A DNA stretch of 60,159 nucleotides, the filler included, from Sanchytrium tribonematis (Eukaryota): NCBI GenBank assembly GCA_018985235.1. It is 9 parts of 9 records of this genome, joined end to end, with 100 filler letters (N's around TTAATTAATTAA, not from the genome) between each part and the next. Parts side by side here need not be neighbours in the genome. Positions count along the whole stretch, not along the records: positions 6,764 to 13,419 come from JADGIG010000510.1; positions 13,520 to 20,151 come from JADGIG010000511.1; positions 20,252 to 26,849 come from JADGIG010000512.1; positions 26,950 to 33,536 come from JADGIG010000513.1; positions 33,637 to 40,213 come from JADGIG010000514.1; positions 40,314 to 46,869 come from JADGIG010000516.1; positions 46,970 to 53,520 come from JADGIG010000517.1; positions 53,621 to 60,159 come from JADGIG010000518.1; 1 more part is not named here. One strand, written 5' to 3'. Below the pieces are notes generated by a model. That model ran no database searches. It worked only from the letters and a program-made list of their open reading frames with translations, and was not told the DNA's origin. Position 1 is the first letter of the stretch. Every line of letters starts with the position of its first letter. The position numbers and the translations under genes are program-made. Positions 8,559 to 57,900 of the stretch are shown piece by piece.

Positions 8559-11500
8559 ATGTCTCTTTCTCATCTTTATAAACTAAATTTGATAGAACAA
8601 CCGGAAGGATTTAGGCCTTTGAAATTTTTCAATTACGAAGTGAGGCATGCCAGTTTGAAGGATCTTTTGAAAGCCTTGACTGCTGATCCTAATTTTCACT
8701 ACCAATACAAAGCAGGCCAACTTCGTCAGTTAGAGTATTTATGTCATACCATGAGCGAGTCTTTTTATTTGGACATTAAAGACTTTGAAATGACAAGAAA
8801 CACTACCAAAATTTGGATCTCTTGGTTTATTTCAAAAACAGATTTACCACCTTGTTTAAAACCTGCTATGAATAGAGTTCGCCCGGAATTATTGGAATCT
8901 GGTAGTGATTTATCAAGTGAACCAAATATTAGCTCGCCTTTAAATGTGTTTAAGAAAGGTGGGACTGATGCAGAGCACGCTTTGAGAATTGTAAATCAAA
9001 TTTTGTTGCACTTTTCTAGTGTTTTTGAATTAGATGAACCATATGACGATGTTTCTAATACATTTCTGGAACAATACCAATTGCTCTTGACAACTATTAT
9101 CGGATTTTACGTTCAATTTAGTAGAACTTGGTCGTTTAAAATGGCTGCTCCTCGAAATCCACCCAGAGATGCCTTAGACATGAGTTCTAGTCGACTTTTA
9201 TTTAAAATTTGCATTGGGTTGGTTGATTATTGTTTGCATAAAAACAAACCAAAGGATGCTCATTACCAAATGTGGCAAAAGATTCTGCATAAATCATGCG
9301 CTGCTTTATTAAGTGTCATTTTCAGTGCCAAAGATCTTAGTGACGAGTCTTGGGATGAGCTGCATGTCTACTTTAGAGATTGGTTGAATTATGGAAATAT
9401 TGCAAAGGTGTGGAGTGCTGTCATTAATTCATTGAGTGAGCATATTCAATTTTTAAGTGAAAAACAAAGTAACAAATTGATGGACATTGTTAAAATCAAT
9501 TTGCCAGGTAACGAGTCTCTTGGAGTGTCTTTAACAGAAGAAGAATTTTTTGACTTTTGGAAACGATTTATTTCTCTTGGAAATACCATTTTGGTGCCTT
9601 CTTTGTTGAATGATCTAAATCCAGAATCTTTCCATATTATCTATCAAGGACTTAACAACTTGGTTTCAAAATTGATTGATTTTGAGAACAACAATCTTTT
9701 ATTGAAAAAAGACCAAGTCATTATCAGCGGAAATTCACTTTTAAAACTGTTTGGTGGTTGGTTAATGACTGGTGCTTGTTTTGAAGATATCAAGGATATT
9801 TTACATTTCAAAGGACGTGCAGAAGCCTTGAGTGCTTTATGTAGAATTTTCATCAATGACATTTATGAAGGATTTCAAAGAAGTAAGAACTACCAGTATC
9901 ATGGTAGCTTCGACGAGGAAGAAACAGCATGCATTTTAGCCATCATTGAAAAGGTAGATTTTATTTATTTAGAGACTGACCTCTGATTTTTTTGCCTCTT
10001 CAAAATTATTATTCCATTGTCCCTCATTGATGCAACTTGAGCTTACTGGTATTGAGTATCTCTTACCAAATATTTTACAAAGTTGTGGTGGATTTGTTCC
10101 AGAAATTGATGGTGCTGATAATTTATCTTTGGAAGAGAAAAATGCTGTTCAGTTGGCTGCTATTGAAAATTTGAGATACTTGGTTCCTTATGGGTACAAG
10201 TATAAACATTTGTTGAATATTTCAAAAACCAAGATGCATTTGCCTGATGTCAAGAGACTATTAAATACAAAATTGGAAAAATCATTTAAATCTTCTGAGG
10301 GTTTAACCAGTGATTACTTTGGAGATTTATTTCGTGTCTTACATTTATGTGTTTTAGCAGATTTGAATGTGGAAGAAGATGATTTTGTTTCTCTCATTAA
10401 TTCCATTACAATTTTCTGCATTGAAAATCACGATGTGTTGCCTCAAATCGCATTAATCGCAGCATCGAGCTTACTCGACAAAATTCAAGCTTTAACTTGG
10501 TCAGCATCTTTAATGTACACCAGTTTTATGGCAATTAATTCTTTGCTGTCTGTTATGAATCCAAAATATCCACCAATGATTACTGAGAAATGTTTGGAAA
10601 TTTTGCCATCTTTAATTCCAAAATACAAAGAATACAAACAAGTCATTTTCGCGTGCATTTACACCATCAGAAAATCATTTTATTACCACGATTCTATTGA
10701 CTCTAAACAAGCGAATATTTTATTTCAAATGTATAATCAATATCATGAGCAAGTGCTTCAAATGCAACTAACTTGGGATAAATTGACTGATGCTGAACGT
10801 GATTTCAAGCCATATTTGCAATTTATCACTGAGAATTTGTTTGTGATTCACAAGCAGCTTTACACTTTAAATTACTTTGATTTTGGACATGTTGATCCAG
10901 AATTGCCTGATATTCAAGATGAAGAAACCTTATTGCAAATGAACAAAGTATGGCACAAGGCTCGACAAGTTTACCAAATGAAGAAGAAGTTATTAAACAC
11001 ACCATCCACGCCCTTATTTCAAGAATTACAAGCAGATGAGGATTTACCACAACCAACTGCCAGTGTACATCCTGTCAAGTTGTATCATTCCAAAGATACT
11101 TTATTTACAATTGAGAAAATCAGCGCTAAAATGTCAAAATTGACAGTCAGAAATCGTGATGGATTATTTCAATTCCAAATTACAGAGACTGGTCAATTAT
11201 TGCCTAAATTACACAATGAAGATTATTCAAAAGAATGTAGAGCCCCGCTGACTCATTTCAATTTGTTTGATTTGGAAAAACCAATTTTAAAACCAGTCCA
11301 TGTAAATGCTGGATTTATTGAAGAACTCCGAAACATTGATTTGACTTATAAATTACAAACTGTGAACGTATTTGTTATGAATGTACATGACGGTAATAAG
11401 AAACTAAATCGACAATTTATTAAAAGTATTGGAGATGTAGATGATGCAGATGGTGATTTTATATTAAGTTGTGCTGAAGATGAGCAATATCGGTTTTATT

Positions 11501-12018
11501 TCTACAACCAGTTGTGTCAAACGGACTTGACAGAATTCACAAATATTAATTTGGATGGTTACGAAACTTTAGACAAGGTGAATGCATTTGTATATTTTGA
11601 ATCTTATTATTCAAATACGAGCACAGATGAGTTGCTCAATCACTTGGTTGATGTATCCACAAACAAGGAAGTTTCTACTGTCATTATTTGCAAACAATTA
11701 AAAACAAGAGGACTCGTTCAATGTCATGTTTACAGAAAGAGTGTTGTCAAGAAATTAAATCAGGTCAAAGATTTGAAAGAAGAAACAGCCACAAATGTAT
11801 TATACAAACAAGTTTACAACAGTGCGCCATTATATCACAATTGTATTGCAAATGTGCATCAATTGGGCACTTTGTTGAAAAATACATTGGCCATGTTTGA
11901 ATTAATGGATAAGAATAATTTGGATACAGACAGATTTAAATTGATTAAAAGTGTTGCTGCTAGATATACTTTGGATGTTGAAGGTCCACTTCAAGTTGCA
12001 GAATTATTGCTTTGCTAA
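8559..12018 (+). CDS. RalGAP beta-subunit-like protein; exons 8559-9953 and 9973-12018
   Basis: NSLLKLFGGWL...GRAEALSALCRIF resembles RALGAPB; removing a 19-nt GT-AG intron joins the two ORFs in frame. Confidence 0.7.
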
Positions 12019-12376
12019 TTTAATAAATATTTATTTTGGAGACTGAAAAATTAATCGTATTATTATAGATCGAATTTTATTTCCTGTTTAAAAATTTAAA
12101 AAATTCAGCATTGAGTGAATTTAAAATTGAGTCGCTAACCTTGTTTTCTTAAAAATTCCAGTTTCGAGTTCATATGAGAGTTATATAATCATATTCCAAC
12201 TTTGAATTACTAGTGCAATTTGGATATAATAATTAGACTAACTGCTGATGAACAATTACGCTACTTAAAATATATGAAAAGTAGACTAAAAATGAATTTA
12301 TAGATAGATTTGTTCAAATTTAATTCATTTGTGTTCCATCTTTATTATGAGATGAAATTAGTTCTATTGATGATTA

Positions 12377-12925: not shown

Positions 12926-12944
12926 ATTTATCACTTTTGAAACA

Positions 12945-13419: not shown

Positions 13420-13519
13420 NNNNNNNNNNNNNNNNNNNNNNNNNNNNNNNNNNNNNNNNNNNNTTAATTAATTAANNNNNNNNNNNNNNNNNNNNNNNNN
13501 NNNNNNNNNNNNNNNNNNN

Positions 13520-14959: not shown

Positions 14960-15018
14960 CAAAATTGTATTGTTAAATAAATTGTAGATAAACACAAATA
15001 ATTTTTGAAGCAGTAACA

Positions 15019-15888: not shown

Positions 15889-15889
15889 A

Positions 15890-17579: not shown

Positions 17580-17623
17580 TTATTGTAAAAAAATTCATTG
17601 CAAAAATTTTGACAGAACACGTG

Positions 17624-18019
17624 CTACAGCCAATCAAATGTTGAAAAATAATTTATAAAAAAGCATCGGTATCCCCTCCTTATAAAACTTTTGTTTTCTG
17701 CAAAGATGAACGTGAATTTTATCTGCTTACTAATGATATATTCCTCGTCCTGAGCAGTCTATTTATTTTAATTTACGTAATATTTTTGCCTGAACTTAAA
17801 ATCAGAATCTTTGCCAATAGCAATAATAGATCTGTATTCGCCATTTCTAATGCTTGTTATATAACTTATAGTATTTGTCAAATCAGCAGCTTCCTCCTGA
17901 ATTTCTTCACCCTTTCGATTCTTTCGCGTTGTAGTAGTTTGTTCAAGCGCTTGTTCAATAATTTTCTTCTTGTTTTTATCGACGCTTTTTCTTTTAACTT
18001 GACTCTTTGAGTTCTTCAT
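17624..18019 (-). CDS. Hypothetical basic protein, probably two exons (18-nt intron 17759-17776)
   Basis: ORF stop lies inside GTAAATTAAAATAAATAG; its removal extends the frame by about 44 codons. Confidence 0.4.
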
Positions 18020-20251: not shown

Positions 20252-20466
20252 TCATTCAGGTAGTACAGATGTCTAGCCTCATTTGAAAAATATCCTTTGT
20301 TAGCAACATTGGCCTTTGGTACTTCTGGAATCTGCGCAACTTCGGTCTTTTGTTCTGGAAACAGCTTCATAGTTTTGAAGTCTGGCATAGTTACCTCCGG
20401 CATTTCTGCTAACTTTTGAAGTAGAGGATGTCGCTGAAAAAGGACAATTACTTTTCCTTGTTTCAT
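20252..20466 (-). CDS. Hypothetical protein, 3' truncated
   Basis: ATG-initiated frame open to contig edge. Confidence 0.45.
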
Positions 20467-20490
20467 GATGAAATCAAAGTCAGGAAATTT

Positions 20491-21459
20491 TCATTGCGTC
20501 TCCAATGATATTATTTGATCAACTATACCATCAATTTCATAATCCAAATCCTCTAAAGACTTTTTGAACAAAATTTCTCTTGTATTTTTAATTACTGCAA
20601 GCACCTCATTCCACTCATATAATTTTGTCTGTCTTTGTATTTGGTCGATTCTTCTCTTCCTTTCATTTTTTATATTTTCAACAAGTGAACCGCTCAATGT
20701 TAGTGACACGCTTTTTGTTGTATTAATAATACCAACAATTTTAGTAGCAGCAGTACTTTTTTTTTCAATCTCAAACAATGGATCCTGCAAATTGATAGAT
20801 CTATTATTTAAAGCCAATTCGGTCTTTTTCAAGGAGTCGGTGGCGTCTAAAACTTCTTTGATTTTCAGTTTCCTATCTTTTAATTTTGACAAAAGTATTT
20901 CCCTTTCAACATCCTTTGTCTTTCGAATAGCAAACAGCTTGTCTTCCTCTAAAGCACTAACATTTCCCAAAATTGTAGGTTCAAGTTTTGTGATCTCGCC
21001 AGCCTTTAATTCATTTGTACATGGCAACAATTTTTTAGAATCATTAAGTTTTGCAGCAAATTCTATATCACTATTACTTTTTACACTCACAGAATTTCTA
21101 TATTTTGAAGATTTAAGCAAGCTTTGAGTTTTCATTCTTAAGTCGTTTTCTAGTCGCGTAACTTTAAGGGAAGATTCGATATTTGTGAATCCGTTATTCT
21201 TTCCACCTTTAATGGACTTTGCTGACTTTTTTGTGGAAGGTAGTCTCTCTCTTTGCTTGAGCATGTTTTGGATGGCTCTATGAATTCTATAATCAGTTTC
21301 TTCTAAATTTCCAATTCCAATATTTTTCCCCTGCGAAGTTACCAAGCCAGATTTTGTTCTTATGTCCAAATGAACAGGAGACAAATCAAATTTTTTCCTA
21401 GAACCGGTTGTATTGTTGTCTCGAAATGGTATGTCGAAGTGAATACTTTTTTTCGACAT
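20491..21459 (-). CDS. Hypothetical Lys-rich coiled-coil protein
   Basis: 322-aa ORF, no recognisable motif. Confidence 0.65.
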   Translation of the reverse strand: MSKKSIHFDIPFRDNNTTGSRKKFDLSPVHLDIRTKSGLVTSQGKNIGIGNLEETDYRIHRAIQNMLKQRERLPSTKKSAKSIKGGKNNGFTNIESSLKVTRLENDLRMKTQSLLKSSKYRNSVSVKSNSDIEFAAKLNDSKKLLPCTNELKAGEITKLEPTILGNVSALEEDKLFAIRKTKDVEREILLSKLKDRKLKIKEVLDATDSLKKTELALNNRSINLQDPLFEIEKKSTAATKIVGIINTTKSVSLTLSGSLVENIKNERKRRIDQIQRQTKLYEWNEVLAVIKNTREILFKKSLEDLDYEIDGIVDQIISLETQ

Positions 21460-21509
21460 TGAAAGTTATATTTTTTGTTTCAACTTATATTGAGGAAATT
21501 GAGATGTAT

Positions 21510-22587
21510 TTATTTAGCCCATGATTCATTCAAACGAGATAAGGCAAACTCCGTATCTTGCCAGCCGATACAAGCGTCTGTGATAGATTTGCCGTATTCC
21601 AAAGCATCAGTTGATGATAGTTTTTGATTGCCTTCCACTAAATGACTTTCAATCATAACGCCTAATAAATGCTCTTTAACCCTCTTGTTTGAATTGCAAA
21701 GACTGTTGACGACATCCAGTTGCTTCTTAAATTGTTTCTGGGAATTCCCATGTGAGCAGTCCACCATAACTTTTTCTTGTAGCCCATTTTTTGCAAGTAG
21801 CTCATTTACACCTAAAATAGATTTCTCGTCATAATTAGGACCATTTTTAGATCCTCTCAAAATTGTATGAACGTCAGCATTACCAGTGGTTTCAACAATA
21901 GCTGTCAATCCTTGCTTTGTAACTGACAAAAAACAGTGAGGCGATTTGGAAGCTAAAAGCGCATCAATGCAAATCTGATAATCACCAGATGTACTATTTT
22001 TAAAACCGATTGGCATAGAAAGTCCTGAACTTAGTTCCCTGTGAACCTAAATTATATAAAATTACTTGACTTTCTGTAGTCCTAGCACCGATTGCACCCC
22101 AAGAGACTAGATCAGCAATAAACTGAGGTGAAATAGTGTCCAAAAATTCAACAGCGCATGGAAGTCCTAATTCATTTATATCTCTGAGAAGCCCTCGTGA
22201 AAGACGCAAACCATCATTTATCCGAAAACTTCCATCTAAATTTGGATCATTGATTAAGCCCTTCCATCCCACAGTAGTTCTAGGTTTTTCAAAGTACACC
22301 CTCATTACTATAAATAGATTTGGATATCGATCTTTGATTGTATTTAATTTTTTTGCATACTCAAGAGCACTCTTGGGATCATGTATAGAACATGGCCCCA
22401 CAATTACTAGGAGTCTATCGTCTGTTCCGTTTAGAATACGACTAATCATATTTCTTCCCAATTTAATTGTAAGAGCTGCGTTGTCCGTTAAAGGAATCTC
22501 TTCCAAAAGAATCTCAGGTGGTAGAAGAGGCCTGATTCTTTGAATTCTTACATCATCAAGATCATTTAATGAGTCGCCATACAACAT
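21510..22587 (-). CDS. Class I DAHP synthase (ARO3/ARO4 family); intron 22047-22065
   Basis: GPCSIHD, EKPRTTVGWKG, VDCSHGNS, ITDACIGW; splicing restores GARTTESQ|VHRELSSGLSMPIGFKN. Confidence 0.96.
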
Positions 22588-22671
22588 AATAATACCTAAA
22601 CAAAGGGGTGGGGGTTAAAAATTTATATATCTACTTGTCCAATCAAGCACAGCTGCAAGCACAATATTATC

Positions 22672-23163
22672 TTATAGTAAGAAATAATAACGAGGTCTTT
22701 TATTAAAATCACCACCTGCGCCAATAGCTCCATATCCACCTCTATTGGCGTCAAAGTCTGGTCTTTTTTCATCTCTCACTTGACCGCCCGATCGACCTCT
22801 TCCAAATTGTCTCCCCTCTATAAAACCGTAATCCAAGTCCACTCGAATCAATTGGTCATCTAATTTAAGCCTGTTGAGGTATCTTACAGATCTTTCTGCT
22901 GCATCTCTGGATGAAAACTCTACGAAGCAAAACCCACAAGGAGTTTTCTTAATGCGATCTAAACCCATGATTATTTTGTTAATAGGACCAGCTTGCCCAA
23001 AAAAAGTGTAAAGTTGCTCTTCTGTGGTGTAAAAGCTTACATTCCCAACATAAACGGTAGTTGTTTTTCCAATTAATTCCTTATATTCATCCGGACTACC
23101 TTTGAATTGGCGATCAATGTAGGAGCTAGGACCTGCAGCATCTTGAAATAACATTAGCATCAT
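22672..23163 (-). CDS. NCBP2: Nuclear cap-binding protein subunit 2 (CBP20)
   Basis: [39 protein letters not shown]; first ATG at 23163. Confidence 0.95.
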
Positions 23164-23199
23164 TTTGGTACAACTGAAGTTTCGCTCAAAACTCCTTGT

Positions 23200-23478
23200 A
23201 TGATTGGATTTGCAAAAAGATTCTTGAGCTTGCCAAAACAGGATGTCAGCGCTAGAATTTTGACACTTCTCAAGGGCTTTGACAAAGTAGATCCCATCAA
23301 GGTAAATGCAGAGGCCCATTTTCTAAATGATCTGAAGTTGGATAGCTTGGACGTTACAGAGGTGATAATGCATGTAGAAGAAGAGTTTCGAATTCAGATA
23401 CCTGATGAGGTTGCTGATGATGTGACAAATGTCAAACAGCTAATTGAGCACATTTCAGGCCGACCAGATGCAATATAA
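23200..23478 (+). CDS. ACP1: Mitochondrial acyl carrier protein
   Basis: LDSLD phosphopantetheine site, EEEF, short presequence. Confidence 0.93.
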
Positions 23479-23501
23479 TAAATGAAAATTAGGATAACAC
23501 A

Positions 23502-26500
23502 ATGGAGTCTTTAATCCCATATTATTTGCAGTCAAAAGGTCTAGTTCGGCAGCACATAGATTCATTTGATTACTTTGTAGACGTTGAGATGAAAAAATTA
23601 TTACATTCTAATGAGAAAATATTAAGTGATGTCGATCAACATTTTTACATTAAATTCACAAATATATTTATTGGCAAACCTGAAGGGCAAGAGCAGTATT
23701 CCAACCACACTTTAACACCGCATGAATGTAGGCTGAGAGACCTAACGTACAGCGCATCTATTTTTGTGGATATTGAATATACTAGAGGTAACCAAATTGT
23801 TAAGAGAAAAGGAATTCCAATTGGAAAATTGCCTATAATGTTGAAATCAAAAAAATGTGTGCTTTTTAAAAAGTCTGATAAGGAGTTGGCTTCCTTGATG
23901 GAATGTCCCTTAGATCCAGCTGGCTATTTTGTTGTCAAAGGCGTGGAAAAAGTAATATTAATTCAAGAACAATTAAGCAAGAACAGAATCATTCTAGAAA
24001 AAGATAAATATGGAATAGTTGCTAACGTTACTTCGTCCTCTATCGAACGTAAAACAAAGACTTATGTATATTCGAAAAATAATAAGATCTATTTAAAGCA
24101 AAATTGCTTTTTGGAAGATATTCCTGTGGTCATGATATTTAAGGCGATGGGGTTGACAAGTGATAACGAAATTTGTGGTCTTGTTGCAGGTACCGATCAT
24201 AAGATCATGGAAATGTTTTCGCCTTCTATCGAAGAAGCGGCGCTTTTGAAAATTTACAACCAGAGAGAGGCTTTGTTGTACATAGGTAATAAGATCCGAT
24301 CTATCCGTGGCTCTGTTGATAGGACACCAGAGTCCAAAATTGAGGAGGCAATGGATATACTGGGCTCTGTTGTTTTATCTCATATTGAAGTGGAAAAGAC
24401 CAATTACAGATTAAAATGTATATATACAGCAATTATGTGTCGCAGGGTAATACTTGCTACTGATGAAACTCAAAATGTTGACGATAGAGACTTTATTGGG
24501 AACAAGAGATTGGAACTTGCGGGAAGTTTAATGTCGATTTTGTTTGAAGACTTATTTAAAAAGTTTTGCACAGAATTAAAGGTAGATATCGACAGGCATT
24601 TAAAAAGAAAATCGAAATCAGTATTTGATGCATACTCTTGTTTAAGAATGCATAGCGATACAATAACTACAGGATTTATTAGAGCCTTGAGCACAGGAAA
24701 TTGGTCATTGAAACGATTTAGAATGGAAAGATCTGGTGTTACTCAAGTGCTAACCCGTTTATCTTATATTTCTGCTTTAGGCATGATGACAAGAATCAAT
24801 TCTCAATTTGAAAAAACAAGGAAAGTAAGCGGCCCCAGAGCTTTGCAACCATCCCAAATTGGTGTGTTTTGTCCAGCAGATACGCCAGAGGGCGAAAGTT
24901 GTGGTTTGGTGAAGAACCTGGCACTATTGACACATGTTACTAATGATCTGGATCCTGAAAACATCAGAACTTTGACCTTTTCTCTTGGATTAGAAGACGT
25001 AAACACCATTTCCGGAGAATCAATTTATGCAGAAAATACCTGGATGGTGTTTTTAAACGGAGTCATTCTAGGAATTACCAAATTTCCTGAATTATTTTTA
25101 AGTAGATTCAGAAAAATTAGGAGGCAGCGTAGAATCTCAGAATTTGTAAGTATAAATAAGCAAGAAAAGCATAAATCAATTCAAATCTCTAGTGATGGTG
25201 GAAGAGTGTGTCGACCATTACTGATTGTAGAAAATGGTCGGCCACTTGTGACCAACGAACACATAAAATCGCTTCAAAATGGACTTTTATGTTTTGAAGA
25301 CTTACTCAAGCTTGGTCTTATAGAATACCTGGATGTCAATGAAGAGAATGACTGCTATATTGCTTTTTACCAAAAAGATCTTACTTTTGAGCACACTCAC
25401 CTAGAAATTGAACCATTTACAATCTTAGGAGCAGTTGCTGGACTCATACCATATCCACATCATAACCAAAGTCCGCGAAACACTTATCAATGCGCTATGG
25501 GAAAACAAGCACAAGGGTTTATTGGGTATAACATGCTTCATAGAATCGACACTCTTCTTTATATGCTAGTGTATTCACAGAAGCCCATGGTAAAATCTAA
25601 AACAATTGATTACATAGGCTACGATAATCTACCAGCTGGTCATAATGCTATAGTTGCAGTTATGAGTTATTCTGGTTATGATATTGAGGATGCGCTTATT
25701 CTAAACAAAGCCTCATTAGATAGAGGATTTGGAAGAGTAGTTGTTTACAAAAAAGCTGTGGCTCAAATTAAAACATATCCAAATGGAACTACTGACAGAT
25801 TGGCACCAGCCCCGAGTGGTGAAAGTCTTAAGTCTGACAAATTTTTCAATCTGGAAAGCGATGGCCTAGCTGCAGTAGGTGAAATCGTACAACCTGGAAG
25901 TGTCATGATTAATCTACAGACTCCTGTTGTGGTTGATCAAGATTCTAAATCTACTGAAGTGAAGTTTACATATAATAATTCTCCTATAAGTCTAAAGTCG
26001 GCAGTTCCTGTGGCAATAGATAAAGTTCTTTTAACAACCACCGAGGGTGGTCACAATTTAGTAAAAGTTCTTACTCGTCAAACGAGAAGACCCGAAATCG
26101 GTATTCAAAATTGATTTAGGAGATAAATTTTCCAGCAGACACGGTCAAAAAGGAGTGACTGGTCTTATTGTAAGTCAAGAAGATATGCCTTTTAATGACA
26201 ATGGGATTTGTCCCGATATTATCATGAATCCACACGGTTTTCCATCTCGTATGACTGTTGGCAAAATGATTGAGCTACTTGCAGGGAAAGCGGGACTACT
26301 ATGTGGTAAACAACAATATGGCACTGCGTTTGGGGGCTCTTCTGTCAAGGACATGTCTAAAATTTTAGTAGAGAATGGATATAGTTATAGCGGAAAAGAA
26401 TTTTTAACAAGTGGAATCAGTGGTGAACCGTTAGAAGCTTACATATTTTTTGGGCCCATTTATTATCAGAAATTAAAGCACATGGTTATGGATAAGATAC

Positions 26501-26838
26501 ATAGTCGTGCACGAGGACCAAGAACTGCTCTGACTAGACAACCCACAGAAGGAAGATCTCGAGATGGAGGTTTGCGGCTGGGGGAGATGGAAAGAGACTG
26601 CCTGATCGCATATGGCGCTTCCATGCTTATCTTGGAAAGATTAATGATTAGCAGCGATGCTTTCGAAGTCTTTATTTGTGGTGAATGCGGTTTGATTGCA
26701 TCTGAAGACTGGTGCAAATTTTGCTCCAGCTCATTAAATCTTCATCCTATGACAATGCCGTATGCTGCAAAGCTTTTATTCCAAGAGCTGCAAGCCATGA
26801 ACATAGTCCCTCGGCTACGATTACAAACCAATAAATAA
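23502..26838 (+). CDS. RPC2: RNA polymerase III second-largest subunit; intron 26101-26119
   Basis: [23 protein letters not shown]; splicing restores [29 protein letters not shown]. Confidence 0.97.
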
Positions 26839-26949
26839 ACTTTTTTAAANNNNNNNNNNNNNNNNNNNNNNNNNNNNNNNNNNNNNNNNNNNNTTAATTA
26901 ATTAANNNNNNNNNNNNNNNNNNNNNNNNNNNNNNNNNNNNNNNNNNNN

Positions 26950-47293: not shown

Positions 47294-48840
47294 TTAAAAC
47301 CCGCTGGCATTCGATACCACATTACTTGGTTTTCTCTTCTTTCTCAAATGCAGTCTCCAAATAATGTAAATAGTCATAATTAAGTCAGACACGATTTTAA
47401 TTATGGGTTGTAAAGAGATATTAATCAGCTTTTGAGTACCATATATGATACTCTGAATTGATGAAATTGCCGTCGTCTTCCATATTGAATCCGTGTTTGA
47501 CGATCTATTTTGAAATGTTGATGCGTATTTCTCTGGAAGTGTCGTGACTATGCGTCTAACAGGACCTTGATTAGTTTTAATTACGTGTCGGTGGTATTGT
47601 AAATGCTGGTTCCATTAGTGCTGTGGAATCTGTGGAAGAATCAGAAAGATCTGCAGAGTTTGCTATTATTAAAGAAGAAATCGAGCTGCCTTTATCCACT
47701 GTCGTCAAATGTGAGGTCATTGTTACTTTCGAAGTCTCAATATTGACTTTGGTTGCTGCTAAATAAGCGTGAAATACGTATTACCACTTTATAAGCACAT
47801 CTTGATGCAAATGAATTATTTATGAAAATGGCATTTAAAGGATTATTGAGTAAATTGCACGTTGCTAACATGCTGTCATTCATCATATTCACATCTGTAA
47901 ATAAATTATTGCTAAGGTCTAATAAAGTTGGCTGTTGCAATGTAACAGAACCATTTAATTGATTATTTTTCAAATTACAATTTACACAATTTAAAACAGT
48001 ATTCAATGAGTCACTTAATTGGTTATTGTATAGTTCCAAATTGATCAATGGCATGCTCAATAATGAGTCTGGAATTGATCCAGTTATTTTATTATTATAC
48101 AAATATATATATTTTAATTTGGAAGGCCAAGAGTTGGGCAATGGACCAGGAATCAGGTTGTACGACAGGTATAAAGTGACCAGGTTTGCAGGTAATTTGT
48201 TGATCACCTTGTCAAAATGATTACTTACTCCATAAATATAATCTATAGTGTCAGGTAATAAATCGAAATTTCCTGTGAAACTATTGTGGGAGCAATCAAG
48301 TGTTTTCAGCTGACTCGGTATGTTGATCAAATTACCAGTAAATTGATTTCCTTCCAAGCGAATAATGACTAAGTTCACTGGTAAAACTGGAATGGTTCCA
48401 TTTAATTTGTTATTACGAATTTCCAATTCATAAAGTTGGTCAGGTAATTGTGGAATAGCCCCATAAAATGCAGAGCCATAAATATCAATATACGTTATTG
48501 AATTAGGTAGCCCATTAGGGAGTCTAGATTTCAACTTAACATTCATATCCAACTCAATTATTTTTAGACTTAAAGGAAGTAATTGAGGCTGTACGGTTCC
48601 ATTTAAATTCATGTATCCTGCCCTGATAGCTGTTACATTATTTAAGCTGCATTTGATGTACAAATTACCAGAGATACTATTATATCCACAGCAATCTGCT
48701 GGAATTTGTTGAAATTCAATTGGGTCTGTAAGATGCATATTTAATCCTTTAAAAAAGTTCAATACCATCGGACAGTCTGGGGAAATAGAATAGATACGTA
48801 ATAGCATAAATATGACGATTATTTGGTTCAAACGTGACAT
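47294..48840 (-). CDS. Receptor-like LRR membrane protein; introns 47759-47777 and 47566-47584
   Basis: Signal peptide, Cys cap, LRRs; removing two 19-nt introns gives an open S/T stalk, TM helix and RKKRK tail ending ASGF*. Confidence 0.85.
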
Positions 48841-48894
48841 TTTAAACTTTTAAACTTGAAACTTTTGACCTATGGAGGTACCAATCAACTACAA

Positions 48895-51572
48895 TCAAAT
48901 CCCAGAATATTTATTGGAAGTGTCTCGCGATGGATTGCTTTCTGGATAAGGATTAATAGTCTTTAATTTCCGTGTTCTTCCACTAAAAAATCCAAATAAA
49001 ATGTTATTTAAAACAAGAATATCCAAGAATATCCGTCCAACCATGGTCCATGTAATTTGTATACTATACAATTTGGATTCAAATTTTACCATTTTTACAA
49101 ATAGTTGAGCTGTTGACTGAGTTGTCAAATTGAAAGAAGATTCATAAACTGAGATTTGAGTTATTTGGGTAGCACTTGCTTTAAATATATTGCGAGTATT
49201 GACTAAATAAATATAAAAGTACTAGATTGTTGCCACAAGGTGGATTCAATTGAACTTGTTTCAACATTTTGCAATAAAAGTGATTTTGCGGTCAAATAAA
49301 ATTGATAACACATGGAATAATTACTCAATAATGTGCTATTTGACAGTGGATTAAATGATAAATCACATTTTGTGAGTGACGAAGTGTCATTAATTTGAAC
49401 TTGAGAAATATTCGTGCTTCCCAAAAAGATGGTAGATGGTCTCCACAAGTTAAGCGAACCACTAAATGTATTACCTTCATTAATTTTATCACCAAGCACG
49501 ACAACTTGGAGAGAAGCTGGAAATACCGGCAATGGACCACTAAATTGATTTCCATTTAAATATAATTCTTGTAAATTGGGTGGAAGGGGTGGAATTACAC
49601 CAGATAACCCACAATAAGTCGCTTCAAGTACCTGCAAAGTACTTGGAAGTAATGGAAGTGCACCTTGTAGTGTCAAATTTCTCAATCGTAATGTTTCTAA
49701 ACCCTCTGCAAATTGTGGCAAATACCCACCAATATTGGAATTTGTGATTTCTAAGTCAACAATATGACTAGGTATATATTTTGGAAGCAATGCAGTCTGA
49801 TTAAACTCGTTGGAAATCATTAATTGAGATAAAGAAGGTGGCAAATCATCTGCAGAAAATGCATACCCATTAAATGTTTTGGCACCTTTAAAATTGATTG
49901 AGTAAATATCCAGTTCGATGATATTTTGTCTGTAGCAATATACAGATCTCAAGGTTGGTTTGCAACAATTTGATTCCCCATCTGAATTTATTATTTCCAT
50001 TTTATGCACCATTTGTAGAAAGTATGAGCATGAATTTATATATGGTTGCTTCGTATACCGCTGCAATTCATAATTACAATTTTGAAAATTTGATAATGCA
50101 GTCAGATTGAGATTGTTCATGGTCACATCGCAAAACGTATTTGTAAATATTGAATTTGTGACAATAAAATCAATAAAATTGTATTGCACTCTGAAGGTGT
50201 AACTTGATTGAGACGTATAACTACTCAAGTCAATAAGGCCTTCAATTTGATTATTTGAAATATCAATATTTTCTAATATAGTTTTACTCCAATTATTTTC
50301 AATAGTTTCAAAGTAATTTCCATGCAAATCCAGATTAGTTATAGATTTTAAGTTTGGAATGGTACCATTTAACTCATTATTAGCAGCTGAAAAAGCCTGT
50401 ATGCTATTTGGAAGCATATTCATAATTGAACCGCTGAATTTGTTCAAGCTTAAATCGAGGAATCTTAAATCAGTTAAGTTAGTGAAATCCGGGAATGATC
50501 CTTGCAATTTATTTCCAATTATAGTAAAACTTTGCAATGTATTTGGCAATAATGATGCATTTAAAGTCCCATTTAAATATGAATAGGAGAAATCGATTAG
50601 GACAATTCGATTCCCGTTGCATTTAATTGGATGGATTTTATCTTCGCAACAATTAGACAGTGAGAATAAGTAATTGTAATAATCTGGATTTGTAAGATGC
50701 ATGTTTAACTGCTTTGCGAATAAATTTAAATTATCACAATCTTGAGATCTTGTATTTTTAAATTTGTAGACACATGCAGTCATTTTACTCAGCACATTAT
50801 TATTCGAAATGTCAAAATAGTTTTCTGCTAAATCACAAGTTTGTATTCTTTCCGGATAATCTATAAATAAATTATCAAAGGAATTTCTATTTAATGACAA
50901 ACTCGTAATATTTGGAGATGAAATAGTCAAATTTCCTATGAGATTATTTTGGTTGAATGACAAAGTTCTAATGCTCTTGAAATCACCGAATGGCAATTCT
51001 AAAATCTCAATGGTGTCTGGAATATTGGGAAATGTACTAGTTGATAAAACAATAGCAGCATATAGTTCTTTCAAATGACTAGTATCTTTTGGTAAGTACC
51101 GATAATCATACAAATCTCCGAGATTGATGTACTCTAAAGAATTTGGAAATTGGGGCAAATTCCAATTCGGATTAGTTGTGCGGACACATAAACTGATATA
51201 TATCAGATTAGGAAGAGTATAGAGTCGCAAAATAATATATCTGGCATCAGTCATATCCAATATCTTGAGAGAATCTGGTAAACTTTCAATGACCATTGAT
51301 TTGACACTATTTGCAAGGTTTAACACGCGTAGATTAGATGGGAATTGCATTGTAGGATATCTAGCACTCACGTAATTACTAGTAAACCCCCAATGTAGTT
51401 CTACAACCCGCTCATTTTCACAAATGACTCCAACTCCCAAACAACAATCTTTTTCATATTGCGGGAAATACTCTGTATTTGTGTACTTTATATCCATATC
51501 CAATGCCAATTGAACCACTATTGGACAATCTATTGAAATAGAAATCAAAATTGTCAAAAATAGCGCGTACAT
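48895..51572 (-). CDS. Receptor-like LRR membrane protein with three cap+LRR modules; 20-nt intron 49203-49222
   Basis: Three C...CC...C caps; splicing joins in frame to ORF 48895-49128, which has a TM helix and basic tail. Confidence 0.85.
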
Positions 51573-51660
51573 TTCAAATGGGTAATTTGTAAAGTAGCGT
51601 GAAAATTTACCATATTTTTGAGATTTATAAATGATTTATTAAATACTTGACTGTTTACGA

Positions 51661-53041
51661 CTAAAATAAATAAGTTCTTATAGAACTACCACTACTGTAT
51701 TCTACTTTTCTAGTTTTATGTCGATTTTTAATGGATTCCCGACATTTTATCAACAAGGATATTAATAAAAGGAAATCAAAAATACATCTTAATATTGAGA
51801 ATGTTGTGATATGAATAATTACCGAAGTGCGACTGGCTACTTTTTGAACAAATCGAATGGATGTTGAATTTTGCAATGTCTCATCCGTGTTTGATGCAAA
51901 TTCAGAGCTATTTGTCGTGATTCTCATATCCCCTGTGTACGTAGTCGTTTGCTTCTTATTTGGTCCTACATAAATTAAAATTACGGGCTGTAGTGTAAGT
52001 ACACATCCAAGCAAATGCAGAATTTGCAAATGCCAACTCTAACGGATTATTATCCAATGCACAATTAAATAAAGATGTGGCATTCCTTATTATCACATTT
52101 GTAAATTGATTATTCATAATCTCTATATCACCTGGTTGTTGGAAGGTAACTACGCCATTGAATTGATTATCATTCAATATGCACAAATCGCATTTTAAAG
52201 TAAAATCAATACTCCCACTTAATTGATTAAGTGACAGGGCTAAAAATTCGACATTAGTATTCCCAAATGAACTTGGAAGAGTGCCATTTATTCGATTTGA
52301 ATAAATACTAAAATCTCTCAATTTTGCCGGCCATGTATTTGGTAACGGACCAGGGATCTTATTTTCACTCAAATACACATTTACCAGATTACTCGGGAGT
52401 CTCGTAATTGGCTGGTCAATTTGATTTCCAATAGCATGAAAATTAGTAATTGAATCCGGTAAAAAGTTTATACTGCCAGAAAACATATTATAATTCATTT
52501 GCAACCAAGTCAATCTTGTTGGTATATTTAACAAATTACCAGTAAATTGATTATAATTCATTTTGATGGAAGATAAATTCACTGGTAAAATGGGAAGGGT
52601 TTCATTAAAATTGTTGAATTCAATGTCCAAAAATGTCAGATTTTTTGGTAATTTCGGTAGATTTCCAGACAATTTAGATCCATATGTGTTGAGAATTGTG
52701 ATAGAATCTGGTAAATTATTGGGAAGTGAACCCGTCAAGTATGGATTATTACTGAGTATGAGTTGCTTCAAGCTAGGTGGAATAAATTGTGGTAAAATCG
52801 CCCCATCTACATTTAAATTAGATGCTTCTATAATTGTTATATTATTTGAATTACAAACAAGTTTTATATTTCCAGTATTGCTAGTGAAATCACAGCAATT
52901 TAAAGTAATTTGTGAAAATTCATCTGAATCTGTATTATGCATATTCAAACCTTTGAAAAATGATAAAATTGATACACAATCTTCATAAATAGCATTGACG
53001 CGTGTTGAAATGATTACTATTAAAACATAATGAAGTTTCAT
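51661..53041 (-). CDS. Receptor-like LRR membrane protein; 19-nt intron 51966-51984
   Basis: Paralogue of the 47294-48840 gene; splicing joins in frame to the TM-encoding ORF 51661-52029. Confidence 0.87.
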
Positions 53042-53925
53042 TTTAGATTTCCTACTGAAACAATTGGCCTATAATTTTCAGGGTTACAATCAACAGCAAT
53101 ATTCTTTTTTTAGAAAAAAATTATACTACAGGCGTCTAAACAAAATATTGAAGGCATCTGAGACATGATTTAGCACTTAACCCTTTGAGGAAATCTACTG
53201 TCCAAATTTGGTGACATCCGTGCAAATTTCAGCTTCTATCCAAATTTGGCTACTTGCTTAAAAATAAATTTTTTGACTTGTTGATTGGCCCGTAATCCCA
53301 CTGATTCGAGTCTTTCGAGACATCTCAATACCCTTTACAATCATTTGAATAATTCCATAAAAGAAAATGTAATCCGCCCTCCTTCAACTGTTGTTATTGA
53401 CTAATCAATAGCACAATATAAAGGAAGGCACAGCAAAAGAGTGTGGTATTTTATTGTTTAATTGTTTTAATTTATTTAAATTAAAGAAACAATTGGTGGA
53501 CTAGTTAATAAATAATTCATNNNNNNNNNNNNNNNNNNNNNNNNNNNNNNNNNNNNNNNNNNNNTTAATTAATTAANNNNNNNNNNNNNNNNNNNNNNNN
53601 NNNNNNNNNNNNNNNNNNNNTTATGAGGCCCTCGCGCTTATATACCCTTTTTTAGAGCGCATGCTTTGTTTAGTTAAGCATGCGCCATCATCTGATTGGG
53701 ATCCAAGCCTTATTAGAAGACTTGGATCTTGTTTTGAATTGGCTAAATCAATTAGATCATTTTGATCTAAATAACATCCAATCACGCTTTGATTTAAGGT
53801 GTTGGATGCGACATCGTTTATTATACAACTAGAATTGCATCCATCGTACTTCATTATATATTACGCATTCAGTTAACAAATTGAAATTCAATTCGCACAT
53901 TTCACATTAAATATCACCAAATTTA

Positions 53926-54240
53926 TTAAAAATGCCCACCATATGCTTTAATACATGCTTTTGCACGTCCAGGCATTGACTCATACAACTTTTTAAACAA
54001 TTCCAAATCATTTTTTAAAATTTCCATGCATCGATTAATTTCCTCACAAATCTGTTCTTCATTGTCGTACTTTTTACCCTTAGCATACACCATTGACTTT
54101 AAAACACTCCACATATTCTCTATAATGTTGAGGTCTGGACTATATGGTGGCCAAACAAGCGTTTTTATTCCAAGTGATGCCATAGATTCCAGACACTCAT
54201 CTGTACAGTGTTGTTTGGCGTTGTCATCCATATAAGTAGC
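53926..54240 (-). pseudogene. Tc1/mariner DDE transposase, C-terminal fragment
   Basis: MDDNAKQH...WPPYSPDLNIIENMW...SMPGR..ACI...GGH. Confidence 0.9.
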
Positions 54241-55194
54241 CTAAATAAATTACCGTTACTCTCAAATCGGGGTGGATGAAACTTTTGTGCAAAAATTTAT
54301 TGAACAACCCTTTATTTGGGTTTTGTGTATCCCATTTTACATTTATTTCAATTTGATTAGCCATTTTAAATAATTTCTTGGTTTCCAGATTCATTGGAAT
54401 TTCTGGAAGATCTAATTCAATTAATTGATAATTTAAGCTGATTAATTTTATATTTTTTTAATTTTGCATTGTCATGTAGTTGTAAATGGTCTGGGAATAG
54501 TTGTATTTGCTGAAATTCTGTGATGAATAGTATAATTTATTCATTTTTGATGGCTAATTTGTCAACACAAGGCCCACCAACTATTATCCAGCTCAAGCTA
54601 GAATTATAATGGTTGTTAGGGATTTTAATAAAATAAATATCTGCCCCATGTCTAAGGTGGGGGATTTTAAAAAATATTTATATTTTAAAAAAATATATTT
54701 ATATTTGTAAAATATAAAAATATCACTCCAAATATAATTTTCAAACAGGGATTACTACTATTAAAGCAAATATTTATTAACTCTAATTGCCAGTTCAGGA
54801 GAGTAGATTCCTAAAGATTCTCTGATCTTTTTGCTTTTTCATTTTTTTCATCTCCTTGGTATTGTATAACTTTTGGCTACTGAAGAGAGAATTTCTAAGA
54901 GGGTATTAGTAAATTGAATAATTGGTTGAAATTTTTAAGTCTCTAGACACTAGGTTACTCAATAAATTGGAGTTTAAATGGGTTTTACCTGGCAATAATT
55001 GGCTCTTGTATCTCCAATTCCCAATTAACTAGTTATAAATGACAATGATGGGGTTAAATAGGACAAATTGATGCTCTGAATATTGACAATCTATTTGGAA
55101 AAAGATAAAATTGACTAAAAATAGACATCATTTTATTGGTCAATTTTCGATCGCGTCATCTCTAAAATATTTTTAATATTTATTTTAAATATCT

Positions 55195-55470
55195 TTAATC
55201 CCCCACTGATACCCTGTAGATTTCTTCTTCACTCAATCCCAGGTAATTGCTGGTGCATTCTATTTCAATATGCTCAAGTGAATCATATGGCTGGTGGCAC
55301 ATTTTGCAACCACCACCTATAAAAGGCATATCTCCCATAATAAATTTGATTGCCAATCTCAACACATGATGTGAATAGCAATAATGATACTTATGACGCT
55401 TTAAAATCTCCATTACTGCGGAATTCAATGGTAATTTTTGAGCCCTTTTTGCATTGTTTTTTATCCACAT
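55195..55470 (-). pseudogene. Non-LTR retrotransposon C-terminal zinc-knuckle remnant
   Basis: CKMCHQPYDSLEHIEIEC, a zf-RVT-like CCHC; flanks degenerate. Confidence 0.55.
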
Positions 55471-56573
55471 TTCATTCAGACTTCTTTACACCTCTTTTCG
55501 TAGCTGCTCTTTACTCTCAAACATTAGTGGGTCCATCTGTTCTATTGTTTCAGCAAAAGACGTGTTATTTCTAAAAATTTTAAAGTATTCTGTAGGGGTA
55601 TTTTAAATCATTTTTTTTGTTGCTCTATTAGTGAATCGATCTGTTTCTCGTTCGATATTCTAGATTTATGATATAGTTCTGTCGCTGTGTGGAATCTACA
55701 CAGGTATTCATGAGTTAATCTTGTATGGGAAAATAGATTATTTATTGCTGTTTTGCGAAAGTGACAATCCATAAGATAGAATTAATTCTATTACTTCATT
55801 GGTAAATAATAATTTACCATTTTTTTTAATCAACGAAGACAGAAAAATTTCGGTTGAGGATGCCCGACTAGCGGTGGTATTCCTACGGTATATAATAAAT
55901 AGATTGCCAATCTACATTCTTAAAGAAGTAAAATCGACAATGAAAAAATTTCAAAGTACTCAACATAAAATTATTCAAGTGCTCACCAGGAGTCGTAGAC
56001 AAGACATTATCCATGCACTGTTTGGCAGACTGATGTGTATTCAGCTCGTACGTATGTGCTAGGGTGTCAAGGATAAGAATACACGAGAAAATCCTCCTAG
56101 TTTGTAAAGATATACGCAGATACATGGTATAGATTGAACAGCTGTAACAAGGTCTATTGCATTTAAATAAATAATACTCTTTCAGTTCAAATTTGGGTTT
56201 GGGTTTGTCGAAAATAGATTTTTTCACGGTACAAACAGGAGCTCGTACAAATGGCGTCATTTCAATCACGCTGATTTTTGGGAAATTCGGAATTAACAGA
56301 AAGAATTCAATCACAAACACTACTACTTTCAATAAAATATAGGCACTTTGGCCTCCACAGAGCTGGGGTATTCATTTTAAGCTACAAACTACAAAACATT
56401 CTCCATGAAAAACACGACCCAATTGCCCAATACTTGTAATTTTGAGCACGTGAATAAATATTTGCCACTTAAATTGTTGCCTTCCCTTTTTGAAAGAAAT
56501 GTCAGAATACTCCATCAAATGAAGATGCATTACAGCTGGCATTTCAAGAACAGACTATAGATGACATGTTTAC

Positions 56574-57900
56574 ATGATAAATTTCATGTATAAAGAACAT
56601 AATATAGTACCTAGACATGTGAAGCAGTTGAATGAAAATGCCATTCACTCTACATGCAATTCCGGAGCACAAAATATATTACCAAACGGAAAAAAGCAAT
56701 ATATTCCGTGTAAATTTCGAATCAGATGTAAGGTTTTAAACCAAAAAGCCATTTTATCTCACCATTATTTATTAAAATATCAATCTCCCCATAACCATGA
56801 AATACCAGGAATATTGTCCTTCAAATATAGAAATAATTTGGCCAATAAATATCCCCATGTGATCGAGTATATTTTCAATTCAAAAAAGACAAATACGTCA
56901 CCCAAAGCAATCTATCAATTTATTCAAATGTCCTACAATATCCATGTATCAATAAATATTATTAATAATTTAAAAATTGACTATTTTGATTTCATGGGTA
57001 TATTAGATCAACATTCAGATGATATTATCTATCACGTGGAGTATACTACATTAAATATAAGCCAAAAATCTATTAAAAATCTTAAATACATATTTATTTT
57101 CTTTCAAAATGCATTTAAAGTGATAAATATTCCATCACCTATCATCTTTGATAGTACTTTCAATATCTGCAATGTAACTGGTCTACGGCTAGTTTATTTT
57201 TGTGCTAGAGACATTCATGGCAAGACAATAAATGTGGCTGCTGTCTACTTATACGAAGAGACAAATTTAGTATTTCATGAAATATTGAATTTATTGAAAA
57301 AGTACTACATTAAACCCATTGGAATGTTTATGACCGACTGAGATGCAACGTATTTATCTTCTCTCAAAGTAATATTTCCAGATATTCCTGCTCTTTGGTG
57401 CATTTGGCATATTGACTTGAATATTCGAAATTGGCCTAATTTATCAATCAATGATCGTAATACTATTGCTGACTTTATTCAGGATATTGCATTTATAAAG
57501 AGAAAGGAGGTAATTTACGTTTATTTAGAATGCAAAAAAGAAAATTGATGAATTATTAAAATTTATTAATGACAATCATTTAGATACTCTAGGTCCTTTG
57601 CAGACACTTTTAAATAATCGTGGTAAGTGGATAATGTCCTATTATGGACATTCAACAATCACCATGCTTATCACATCGTCTCAAAGGTCAGAATCTCAAC
57701 ATTGACTGTTAGAAAGAAATATTAACAAGAAGAACAGCCTCAAGTCATCTTTTTTACATGTTGTCAATCTACATAAGCCTCAACTACACATTAACAATCA
57801 ACAAACATCCAATCAATCATTGATACATTATCTGAATATGTACATTTGCGGTATAAAAACGAATATGATCAATATGAGAAGTGTAAAGAATTTGGAATAG
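56574..57900 (+). pseudogene. Mutator-like (MULE) transposase pseudogene; intron 57510-57528; in-frame TGA at 57339 and 57703
   Basis: C-x-F...HNH domain, FDSTFN, MTD*DA, WCIWHI; after splicing KW...TSSQRSESQH. Confidence 0.85.

What the first reader, a model, noticed from the sequence alone, without database searches (positions are those of the whole stretch)
9954..57528. Ultrashort (18-20 nt, mostly 19 nt) spliceosomal introns with a fixed A at -6
Seen: 19-nt GT..AG segments at 9954-9972 (+), 22047-22065 (-), 26101-26119 (+), 47566-47584 (-), 47759-47777 (-), 51966-51984 (-) and 57510-57528 (+); a 20-nt one at 49203-49222 (-); weaker candidates at 54241-54259 (-, 19 nt) and 17759-17776 (-, 18 nt). 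Removal restores conserved motifs: RPC2 [30 protein letters not shown], and the MULE catalytic QRSES. All ten start GTA and have A at -6; nine read TNAT at -8 to -5 (one is CTAATCAAG), and most end TTTAG. I found no longer intron. Established: introns this short are known from heterotrich ciliates (15-16 nt) and chlorarachniophyte nucleomorphs (about 18-21 nt), while fungal introns are normally much longer. Inference: a length-measuring spliceosome with the branch point fused to the 3' splice site, in a fungus-like nucleus. Gene predictors with default minimum intron sizes would split these genes.
Basis: partly seen in the sequence, partly recalled or inferred. Interest (0 to 1): 0.88.

Follow-up and report, generated by a model that had tools for sequence, protein, structure and literature searches.

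The report
19-base introns in sanchytrid fungi
Several genes of an algae-parasitic sanchytrid fungus, and of its relatives, are interrupted by 19-20-base GT-AG segments that are very likely spliced introns (no RNA was available to prove it), which would be the shortest introns I could find reported for any fungus and would mean that existing intron-blind gene lists for this phylum cut genes in two.

Summary
All 10 segments are present as described. The window is nine size-sorted contigs of a sanchytrid fungus (RPL3 90% identical to Amoeboradix gromovi). Two introns are fixed by orthologues alone: removing exactly 19 nt from DAHP synthase and RPC2 gives gapless matches to intron-less sanchytrid orthologues. 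Three of four relatives break RPC2 at the same codon; the fourth carries a 19-nt GT..A(-6)..G segment at another site. Three LRR genes gain stalk, membrane helix and basic tail only after removal. A motif taken from three anchored introns rescues ORFs at 19 nt in 5 of 18 other matches, against 6 of 231 at other lengths. Seven introns are firm or well supported, two lie in decayed transposons, the 18-nt one is doubtful. No RNA run was listed, so splicing, the -6 branch point and genome-wide uniformity are inferred. The geometry matches Stentor's tiny introns; my paper searches found no report for sanchytrids. Earlier scan notes hold none on this lineage, but note 25-32-nt introns in Rozella.

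The parts
26101..26119 (+). 19-nt phase-1 intron in RPC2 (RNA polymerase III second subunit, gene 23502-26838); firm
   Evidence: Best of 36 GT/GC-AG excisions, gapless match to P0128, P0181, P0233; P0125, P0126, P0127 stop at the same codon; retained without gap in X1 contig 25851-26576
22047..22065 (-). 19-nt phase-0 intron in DAHP synthase (gene 21510-22587); firm
   Evidence: Best of 57 excisions, gapless at the junction against intron-less P0244 and P0245; P0363 also intron-less; retained without gap in X1 contig 20704-24082
9954..9972 (+). 19-nt phase-0 intron in a RalGAP-beta-like gene (8559-12018); well supported, no orthologue anchor
   Evidence: Joins 470 and 681 open codons into about 1145 aa; RALGAPB_N in the first half; second half unassigned
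47759..47777 (-). 19-nt phase-1 intron 1 of LRR receptor-like gene 1 (47294-48840); well supported
   Evidence: With intron 2 gives LRR, S/T stalk, hydrophobic helix, basic tail; the 26-nt option from an upstream GTAATA does not rescue the frame; bridged by X1 contig 47641-47846
47566..47584 (-). 19-nt phase-1 intron 2 of LRR gene 1, with CTAAT branch-like motif and AAG end; well supported
   Evidence: Needed to reach the membrane helix; a divergent second copy in X1 differs at intron positions 4 and 7 among the listed changes, with no indel
49203..49222 (-). 20-nt phase-1 intron of LRR receptor-like gene 2 (48895-51572); well supported
   Evidence: Adds stalk, helix and basic tail
51966..51984 (-). 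19-nt phase-1 intron of LRR receptor-like gene 3 (51661-53041); well supported
   Evidence: Adds stalk, helix (KD19 2.18) and basic tail; lies within one codon of intron 1 of gene 1 in the paralogue alignment
57510..57528 (+). 19-nt candidate intron in a decayed MULE transposase; moderate
   Evidence: Perfect motif and brings SQRSES into frame, but stops at 57339 and after QRSESQH
54241..54259 (-). 19-nt candidate intron before a Tc1/DDE_3 fragment; moderate to weak
   Evidence: Perfect motif, joins 66 and 104 codons, but the upstream part has no DDE_3 match and a 13-nt option keeps the same frame
17759..17776 (-). 18-nt candidate with in-frame stop in a small unknown ORF upstream of RPL3; doubtful
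   Evidence: Lacks T at -8 and -5; no family or look-alike found for either part

Best explanation
These 19-20-nt GT-AG segments interrupt reading frames in a sanchytrid fungus and its relatives and are likely U2-type spliceosomal introns shrunk to near the minimum size, with the A at -6 predicted to be the branch point. Shown: termini, motif, frame rescue, gapless match to intron-less orthologues, the same break in three other genomes, core spliceosome genes annotated in a relative. Inferred mechanism: U1/U6 read GTA; U2 pairs with (Y)TNAT so that A14 branches to give a 14-nt lariat loop with a 5-nt tail; the first AG after the branch is used with no separate pyrimidine tract and no scanning. 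The near-fixed length would then be the sum of two tight spacings, a steric floor on donor-to-branch distance held down by deletion bias and a fixed branch-to-AG distance. With so short a tail the second-step factors Slu7 and Prp18 would be dispensable, and neither is annotated in A. gromovi (weak evidence).
For: signals; best of 57 and of 36 excisions, gapless junctions; three relatives stop after PEIG; in two the stop sits at intron positions 12-14, which is TRA at -8..-6 of a 19-mer; P0128 decodes under one offset only to a 19-nt segment starting GT with A at -6; five-lineage sanchytrid clade 100/100, window sister to the other four, so the RPC2 break spans the clade's root; three LRR genes become type I membrane proteins; length spike; Prp8, Brr2, SF3B1, U2AF1, U2AF2, SF1/BBP, U1-70K, Prp17, Prp22, Isy1, Dbr1 rows in the A. 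gromovi table of PMC8371127; general branch consensus WCTRAYN (PMC2483917, passages); Stentor branch A at position 10 of 15 (PMC9505925, passages); Slu7/Prp18 not essential at short branch-to-AG distance in yeast (PMC3683925 and PMC10158995, passages).
Against: No transcript or lariat was seen. Only 59 kb of an approximately 11-Mb genome was examined, so longer introns elsewhere are not excluded. P0125's stop lies at intron positions 15-17, which excludes a 19-mer with A at -6; 17, 18, 21 or 22 nt remain possible. The branch motif is mostly TTAT in 81% A+T sequence and could partly reflect composition. Two candidates lie in decayed transposons and one has no homologue. The Slu7/Prp18 zero comes from an automatic table covering about half the proteins, searched with identifiers I recalled, and the second species' sheet was cut.
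Confidence: 0.72

Rival explanations
1. The segments are real spliceosomal introns, but they are the short mode of a broader distribution and the -6 A is not an obligatory branch point; no strict spacing rule exists.
For: Small sample (7 good introns in 59 kb, plus one decoded in a relative); lengths of 18 and 20 occur; P0125 departs from the 19-nt pattern.
Against: No longer intron is needed in any conserved gene of the window: Pfam profiles of RPL3, PHO4, carnitine acyltransferase, DEAD helicase, ABC transporter and 3HCDH are covered end to end by single ORFs; the control without A at -6 rescues 0 of 25 at 19 nt; an unrelated site in another lineage is again 19 nt with A at -6.
Confidence: 0.19
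2. The segments stay in the mRNA and the ribosome recodes across them (+1 frameshift or translational bypass).
For: Eight of ten lengths are 19 nt, all one +1 shift; in RPC2 and DAHPS the codons either side of the segment are synonymous (Gly/Gly, Val/Val), as bypassing would need (read).
Against: Only 2 of the 7 good cases have such matched codons; a frameshift would leave six extra residues in the invariant RPC2 motif where orthologues align without gaps; the 20-nt case needs another shift; no stem-loop signal (z from -0.96 to 1.44 in 7 of 7 folds); GT, AG and A(-6) would have no reason to be kept.
Confidence: 0.03
3. Assembly or amplification artefacts, or disabling insertions in pseudogenes.
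For: Fragmented assembly; two candidates lie in transposon copies that carry other stops.
Against: A second assembly of run X1 holds 22047, 26101 and 47759 without gaps (X1 may be the window's own sample, so this tests the assembler only); three other genomes break RPC2, an essential gene, at the same codon with different inserted letters. It may still hold for 54241, 57510 or 17759.
Confidence: 0.03
4. Non-spliceosomal removal by an endonuclease and ligase, as for the roughly 20-nt HAC1/XBP1 introns (recalled) or tRNA-type introns.
For: Similar length (recalled, no call).
Against: GT-AG ends in 10 of 10 and no paired stem-loops at the junctions in 7 of 7 folds; the lineage has a spliceosome and a debranching enzyme.
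Confidence: 0.03

Closest known systems
Tiny introns of heterotrich ciliates (Stentor coeruleus; PMC9505925, passages seen)
   Same: GU-AG, invariant GUA start, AU-rich, weak branch consensus, putative branch A six bases from the 3' end (position 10 of 15, 11 of 16) leaving a 5-nt tail
   Different: 19-20 nt here against 15-16, so a 14-nt loop against 10-11; a fungus, not a ciliate; a small gene-dense parasite genome; not confirmed by RNA
Mikrocytid introns (Mikrocytos mackini, Paramikrocytos canceri; PMC10245619, section read)
   Same: Reduced parasite, narrow length range, conserved sequence
   Different: 16-17 nt, 224 introns, spliceosome of 17-19 proteins, none in metabolic genes; here 19-20 nt, one in a metabolic gene (DAHPS), and the relative keeps U1-70K, U2AF, SF1, Prp17 and Isy1
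Chlorarachniophyte nucleomorph introns (18-21 nt; as summarised in PMC10245619)
   Same: Same length range, GT-AG
   Different: Endosymbiont remnant of green-algal origin with more than two introns per gene; here a main nucleus with about one intron per four genes
Fixed branch-to-AG introns of Yarrowia lipolytica, Trichomonas and Giardia (PMC2483917, passages)
   Same: Branch motif anchored next to the 3' AG with no pyrimidine tract
   Different: Those have strong ACTAAC motifs and are much longer (Yarrowia median 204 nt in that table); here the motif is degenerate and the whole intron is minimal
Short introns of Microsporidia, Rozella, myxobolid myxozoans and Dicyema
   Same: Parasites with introns under 30 nt; donor reduced to GTa in myxobolids (PMC13644364, parts 1-2 of 3 read)
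   Different: Encephalitozoon median 32 nt (PMC2483917 table; minimum about 23 nt recalled), myxobolids median 22-27 nt, Rozella 25-32 nt (unchecked scan note); none reported at 19 nt in what I read

Membership tests
U2-type spliceosomal intron | GT...AG termini | tested here: met
   10 of 10; P0128 segment starts GT and ends NG with AG allowed
U2-type spliceosomal intron | Removal restores the orthologous protein exactly | tested here: met
   2 of 2 genes with orthologues in hand, RPC2 and DAHPS; the other eight had no orthologue
U2-type spliceosomal intron | Branch-site motif with A near the 3' end | tested here: met
   A at -6 10 of 10, TNAT 9 of 10, one CTAAT; consensus WCTRAYN. Sequence match only
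U2-type spliceosomal intron | Segment is absent from mature mRNA | not testable with these tools
   No RNA holder listed
U2-type spliceosomal intron | Excised as a lariat branched at that A | not testable with these tools
   Needs lariat sequencing
U2-type spliceosomal intron | Major spliceosome proteins present in the lineage | tested here: met
   Rows for Prp8, Brr2, SF3B1, U2AF1/2, SF1, U1-70K, Prp17, Prp22, Isy1, Dbr1 in the A. gromovi sheet; automatic labels, not re-searched
U2-type spliceosomal intron | U1, U2, U4, U5, U6 snRNAs able to pair with these signals | not testable with these tools
   No genome held; 0 Rfam matches in the window
Ultrashort fixed-length class (Stentor, Mikrocytos, nucleomorph) | Lengths within a range of a few bases below 22 nt | tested here: met
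   18-20 nt in 10 of 10 window candidates, 19 nt in the decoded relative
Ultrashort fixed-length class (Stentor, Mikrocytos, nucleomorph) | The range holds for nearly all introns of the genome | tested here: inconclusive
   No longer intron needed in 59 kb; rest of genome not available; P0125 departs from 19 nt
U12-type (minor) intron | Extended donor RTATCCT (recalled motif) | tested here: not met
   0 of 10
Ire1/HAC1-type or tRNA-type non-spliceosomal intron | Cleavage sites presented in paired stem-loops | tested here: not met
   No fold better than shuffles in 7 of 7 junction regions

The most novel reading that the evidence does not exclude
The whole phylum Sanchytriomycota runs on a 19-nt ruler: a fungal spliceosome that has dropped Slu7 and Prp18, can only reach an AG five bases past the branch point, and still acquires new introns (the lineage-specific RPC2 and DAHPS sites, transposon copies) that are born at or forced to 19 nt. 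It would be the first such system in true fungi, close enough to yeast for part-by-part comparison of what sets the minimum intron size.
Probability: 0.25. Interest if true: 0.8.

Novelty: new member of a known kind. Interest (0 to 1): 0.62.

Why it matters
It adds an independent origin of sub-20-nt introns, in true fungi, converging on the same GTA start and A(-6) geometry as Stentor, which bears on the open question of what sets the minimum intron a spliceosome can handle and gives a direct prediction (loss of Slu7/Prp18, altered branching factors). It also has a practical effect: sanchytrid proteomes were called without introns, so public proteins such as RPC2 are truncated; at 7-10 introns per 59 kb a rough extrapolation is 1,300-1,900 introns in an 11-Mb genome, enough to affect gene-loss counts and the many unannotated lineage-specific proteins reported for this phylum, and to hide the membrane anchors of an LRR receptor-like family.

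Tried and rejected
RNA evidence: no RNA holder listed for 20260-26840. Whole genome: none held, so no genome-wide length plot or snRNA search. A stricter 19-nt pattern found 0 in prokaryote genomes and 0 in viral contigs (it matches the window). So no DNA of relatives was seen; their introns are read from ORF translations. An orthologue for the RalGAP-beta-like gene: no PDB match for either half, only weak ARM/HEAT look-alikes under 0.9, and the representative search never ran, so 9954 is unanchored. 17759: no Pfam or Atlas lead. Hidden in-frame 18- or 21-nt introns: none in RPL3 (4 sequences) or RPC2 (4 sequences), gaps of at most 3 residues; the 21-nt match at 41408 reads as the ABC-domain motif and is coding. 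A relaxed scan gave 17 rows: the 10 known and 7 others that lie inside intact ORFs, antisense, or in decayed sequence; none accepted. Gain by tandem duplication: the DAHPS intron does not resemble its flanks. Direction for the DAHPS intron: one gain or one loss are equally parsimonious because the window is sister to the three intron-less lineages. Not seen: two supplements of PMC8371127 too large to read, one scanned PDF, and most of the second species' annotation sheet; a remark on introns there is not excluded. PMC3809491 (microsporidian intron structure) was not held.
Full report
Observation. All ten segments are GT..AG at the stated coordinates, strands and lengths: eight of 19 nt, one of 20, one of 18. 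Aligned at the 3' end, A at -6 is in 10 of 10, T at -8 and T at -5 in 9 of 10 each, T at -3 in 9 of 10; all start GTA; they are 81% A+T against 66% for the window. The window is not one stretch: eight 100-nt spacers cut it into nine pieces of falling length, 6.66 to 6.54 kb, i.e. size-sorted contigs. No whole genome is held.

Chance. GTA-N8-TNATTTAG occurs 6 times against 0.33 expected, and 0 of 100 shuffles reach 6; a Markov control gives 6 against 0.17 at 19 nt and at most 2 at any other length from 14 to 40. That motif is post hoc. For a fairer test I took a motif only from the three introns fixed by orthologues (GT..A-Y-N-T-A-G) and counted matches that join at least 50 open codons to at least 50 more where the unspliced frame stops within 25 codons: 7 of 20 at 19 nt (5 of 18 without the two window anchors) against 6 of 231 at the other 27 lengths, of which one is the 20-nt candidate and two share an acceptor with a 19-mer. 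The same motif without A at -6 rescues 0 of 25 at 19 nt and 6 of 556 over all lengths. Against this, the loose pattern GTA..A..TAG gives 13 at 19 nt but 14 at 25 nt with about 6 expected, and three strong-looking 19-mers are antisense or coding: the motif alone does not identify an intron.

Organism. RPL3 is 90% identical to the EukProt protein of Amoeboradix gromovi and at most 75% to the other listed hits; the two group at 100/100 in a 34-sequence tree. On RPC2 the window, A. gromovi and three unnamed ENA proteins form a clade at 100/100 that joins the two Blastocladiomycota at 98/97, with the window sister to the other four at 95/95 (14 sequences). DAHPS and RPC2 lie on one contig in A. gromovi as they do here. 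The window's 34% G+C fits the approximately 35% of published sanchytrid genomes (PMC8371127, passages and Table 1). Pieces 3 and 4 are thus sanchytrid; piece 8 is held by the same run as piece 4; pieces 2 and 9 are assigned by composition only.

Anchored introns. Of 57 GT/GC-AG excisions that restore one frame in DAHPS and 36 in RPC2, the 19-nt ones score best against orthologues and give gapless junctions. Three sanchytrid DAHPS proteins called from DNA (P0244, P0245, P0363) run through the site uninterrupted, as does RPC2 P0128. The other three RPC2 relatives, 80-84% identical, end a few residues after PEIG like the window's ORF, each with different residues, so four genomes carry an insertion at one codon of an essential gene. 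In P0126 and P0127 the stop occupies intron positions 12-14, where a 19-mer has TRA at -8 to -6; in P0125 it occupies 15-17, which excludes that pattern and leaves 17, 18, 21 or 22 nt open. P0128 begins with 15 odd residues; under one offset only, the first nine are the upstream exon read out of frame, and exactly 19 nt separate the exon from EGESC, starting GT, with A forced at -6 and G at the end. This is a second RPC2 site, absent from the other four, and most simply a gain in that lineage (inference; an old position kept by one lineage is not excluded). The DAHPS intron is one gain or one loss.

Other introns. The three tandem LRR genes end as soluble-looking stubs unspliced; after removing four segments each gains a Ser/Thr-rich stalk (28-35% S+T), a hydrophobic 19-mer and 4-6 basic residues behind it. 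The hydropathy gain is clear for genes 1 and 3 (1.14 to 1.53, 0.93 to 2.18) and small for gene 2 (1.51 to 1.71). At 47759 a more consensus-like GTAATA seven bases upstream does not rescue the frame, and in RPC2 a second AG three bases downstream scores worse, as expected if both ends are set by distance (inference). 9954 joins 470 and 681 codons in a RalGAP-beta-like gene, without an orthologue to anchor it. 57510 brings QRSES into frame, but the MULE copy has two other stops; 54241 precedes a DDE_3 fragment whose upstream part has no family match; 17759 breaks the motif and has no homologue. I rank 2 firm, 5 well supported, 2 moderate or weak, 1 doubtful. No longer intron is needed in the conserved genes, whose Pfam profiles are covered by single ORFs.

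Artefact check. Contigs of DNA run X1 bridge 22047, 26101 and 47759 without gaps and no indels are listed in either stretch; 49203 has only 19 letters on one side and 51966 is not bridged by a listed piece. X1 may be the window's own sample. A divergent second copy over 47523-47626 shows 18 listed differences, two inside the intron (positions 4 and 7) and none at GTA, CTAAT or AAG; 53 further rows of that table were not shown.

Machinery. The A. gromovi annotation sheet in the supplement of PMC8371127 has rows for Prp8, U2AF1, Brr2, cactin, Sub2, Prp22, Dbr1, U2AF2, SF1/BBP, U1-70K, SF3B1, Prp17 and Isy1; SF1/BBP appears as two ORFs of one contig, as a missed intron would cause. Slu7 and Prp18 gave 0 hits by name and by four identifiers that I recalled. 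In yeast these two are not essential when the branch lies 7-9 nt or less from the 3' site (PMC3683925, PMC10158995; passages). The zero is weak: only about half the proteins were annotated and the second sheet was cut.

Mechanism. Most likely U2-type splicing at minimal size: GTA read by U1 and U6, U2 on (Y)TNAT, A14 branching to a 14-nt loop with a 5-nt tail, first AG taken without scanning. Length then follows from a floor on donor-to-branch distance, deletion bias above it, and a fixed tail; PMC10245619 (section 7 read) argues this balance for mikrocytids. Shown are the signals, frame rescue, conservation and the presence of spliceosome genes; excision, branch position and uniformity are inferred. 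Recoding fails on unmatched codons in 5 of 7 good cases and on the gapless junctions; endonucleolytic splicing fails on the lack of structure in 7 of 7 folds.

Known cases and novelty. Stentor (15-16 nt, branch A six from the end; PMC9505925, passages), mikrocytids (16-17), nucleomorphs (18-21) and myxobolids (median 22; PMC13644364, two of three parts read) make this a known kind. For sanchytrids, five searches (on the taxon names with intron or splic; on tiny introns, fungi, 19 nt) listed no paper on their introns; I saw most hits as listings only. The genome paper has no mention of splicing in its main text and called ORFs on contigs with TransDecoder; the TPPP paper mentions introns only in a reference. 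Subscription papers and three supplements were not searchable. The 2026 overview names only Microsporidia among fungi with introns under 30 nt. I score it a new member of a known kind, interest 0.62: convergent, practically important for this phylum, but unconfirmed by RNA.

Noticed in passing
window 6664-6763 and seven more spacers to 53521-53620: The window is nine size-sorted contigs joined by 100-nt spacers; genes cut at the spacers (TSR1, IMS polymerase, S9 peptidase) are truncated by contig ends, not broken.
   Followed up: yes
window 47294-53041 (-) and 7128-8156 (+): Tandem family of signal-peptide LRR proteins with a Cys cap; three become type I membrane receptor-like proteins after splicing; a fourth on another contig has two chitin-binding modules and no tail. 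X1 shows many further copies (depth about 1500 near 51400). Candidate host-recognition family.
   Followed up: partly
window 1-6663 (+): Ty3/gypsy-like retroelement in three overlapping frames (unassigned first ORF; RT and RNase H; integrase zinc finger), with frame changes near 2303-2328 and 3700-3871 that do not fit the 19-nt intron motif.
   Followed up: no
   Followed up: partly
window 21510-22587 (-): Beyond sanchytrids the best DAHPS hits are mostly bacterial (65-72%), with one chytrid at 67%; origin not tested.
   Followed up: no
PMC8371127 supplement, A. gromovi sheet rows 1135-1136: SF1/BBP is annotated as two ORFs on one contig, possibly another gene split by a tiny intron; Slu7 and Prp18 have no row.
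   Followed up: partly
window 20252-26849 (run X1): Clusters of alternative letters at about half depth in RPC2, nearly all spaced in multiples of three, suggest two haplotypes or strains in the run.
   Followed up: no
window 53929-58678: Transposon graveyard contig: Tc1/DDE_3 fragment, MULE with internal stops, RNase H fragment; two of its elements carry perfect 19-nt intron motifs.
   Followed up: partly
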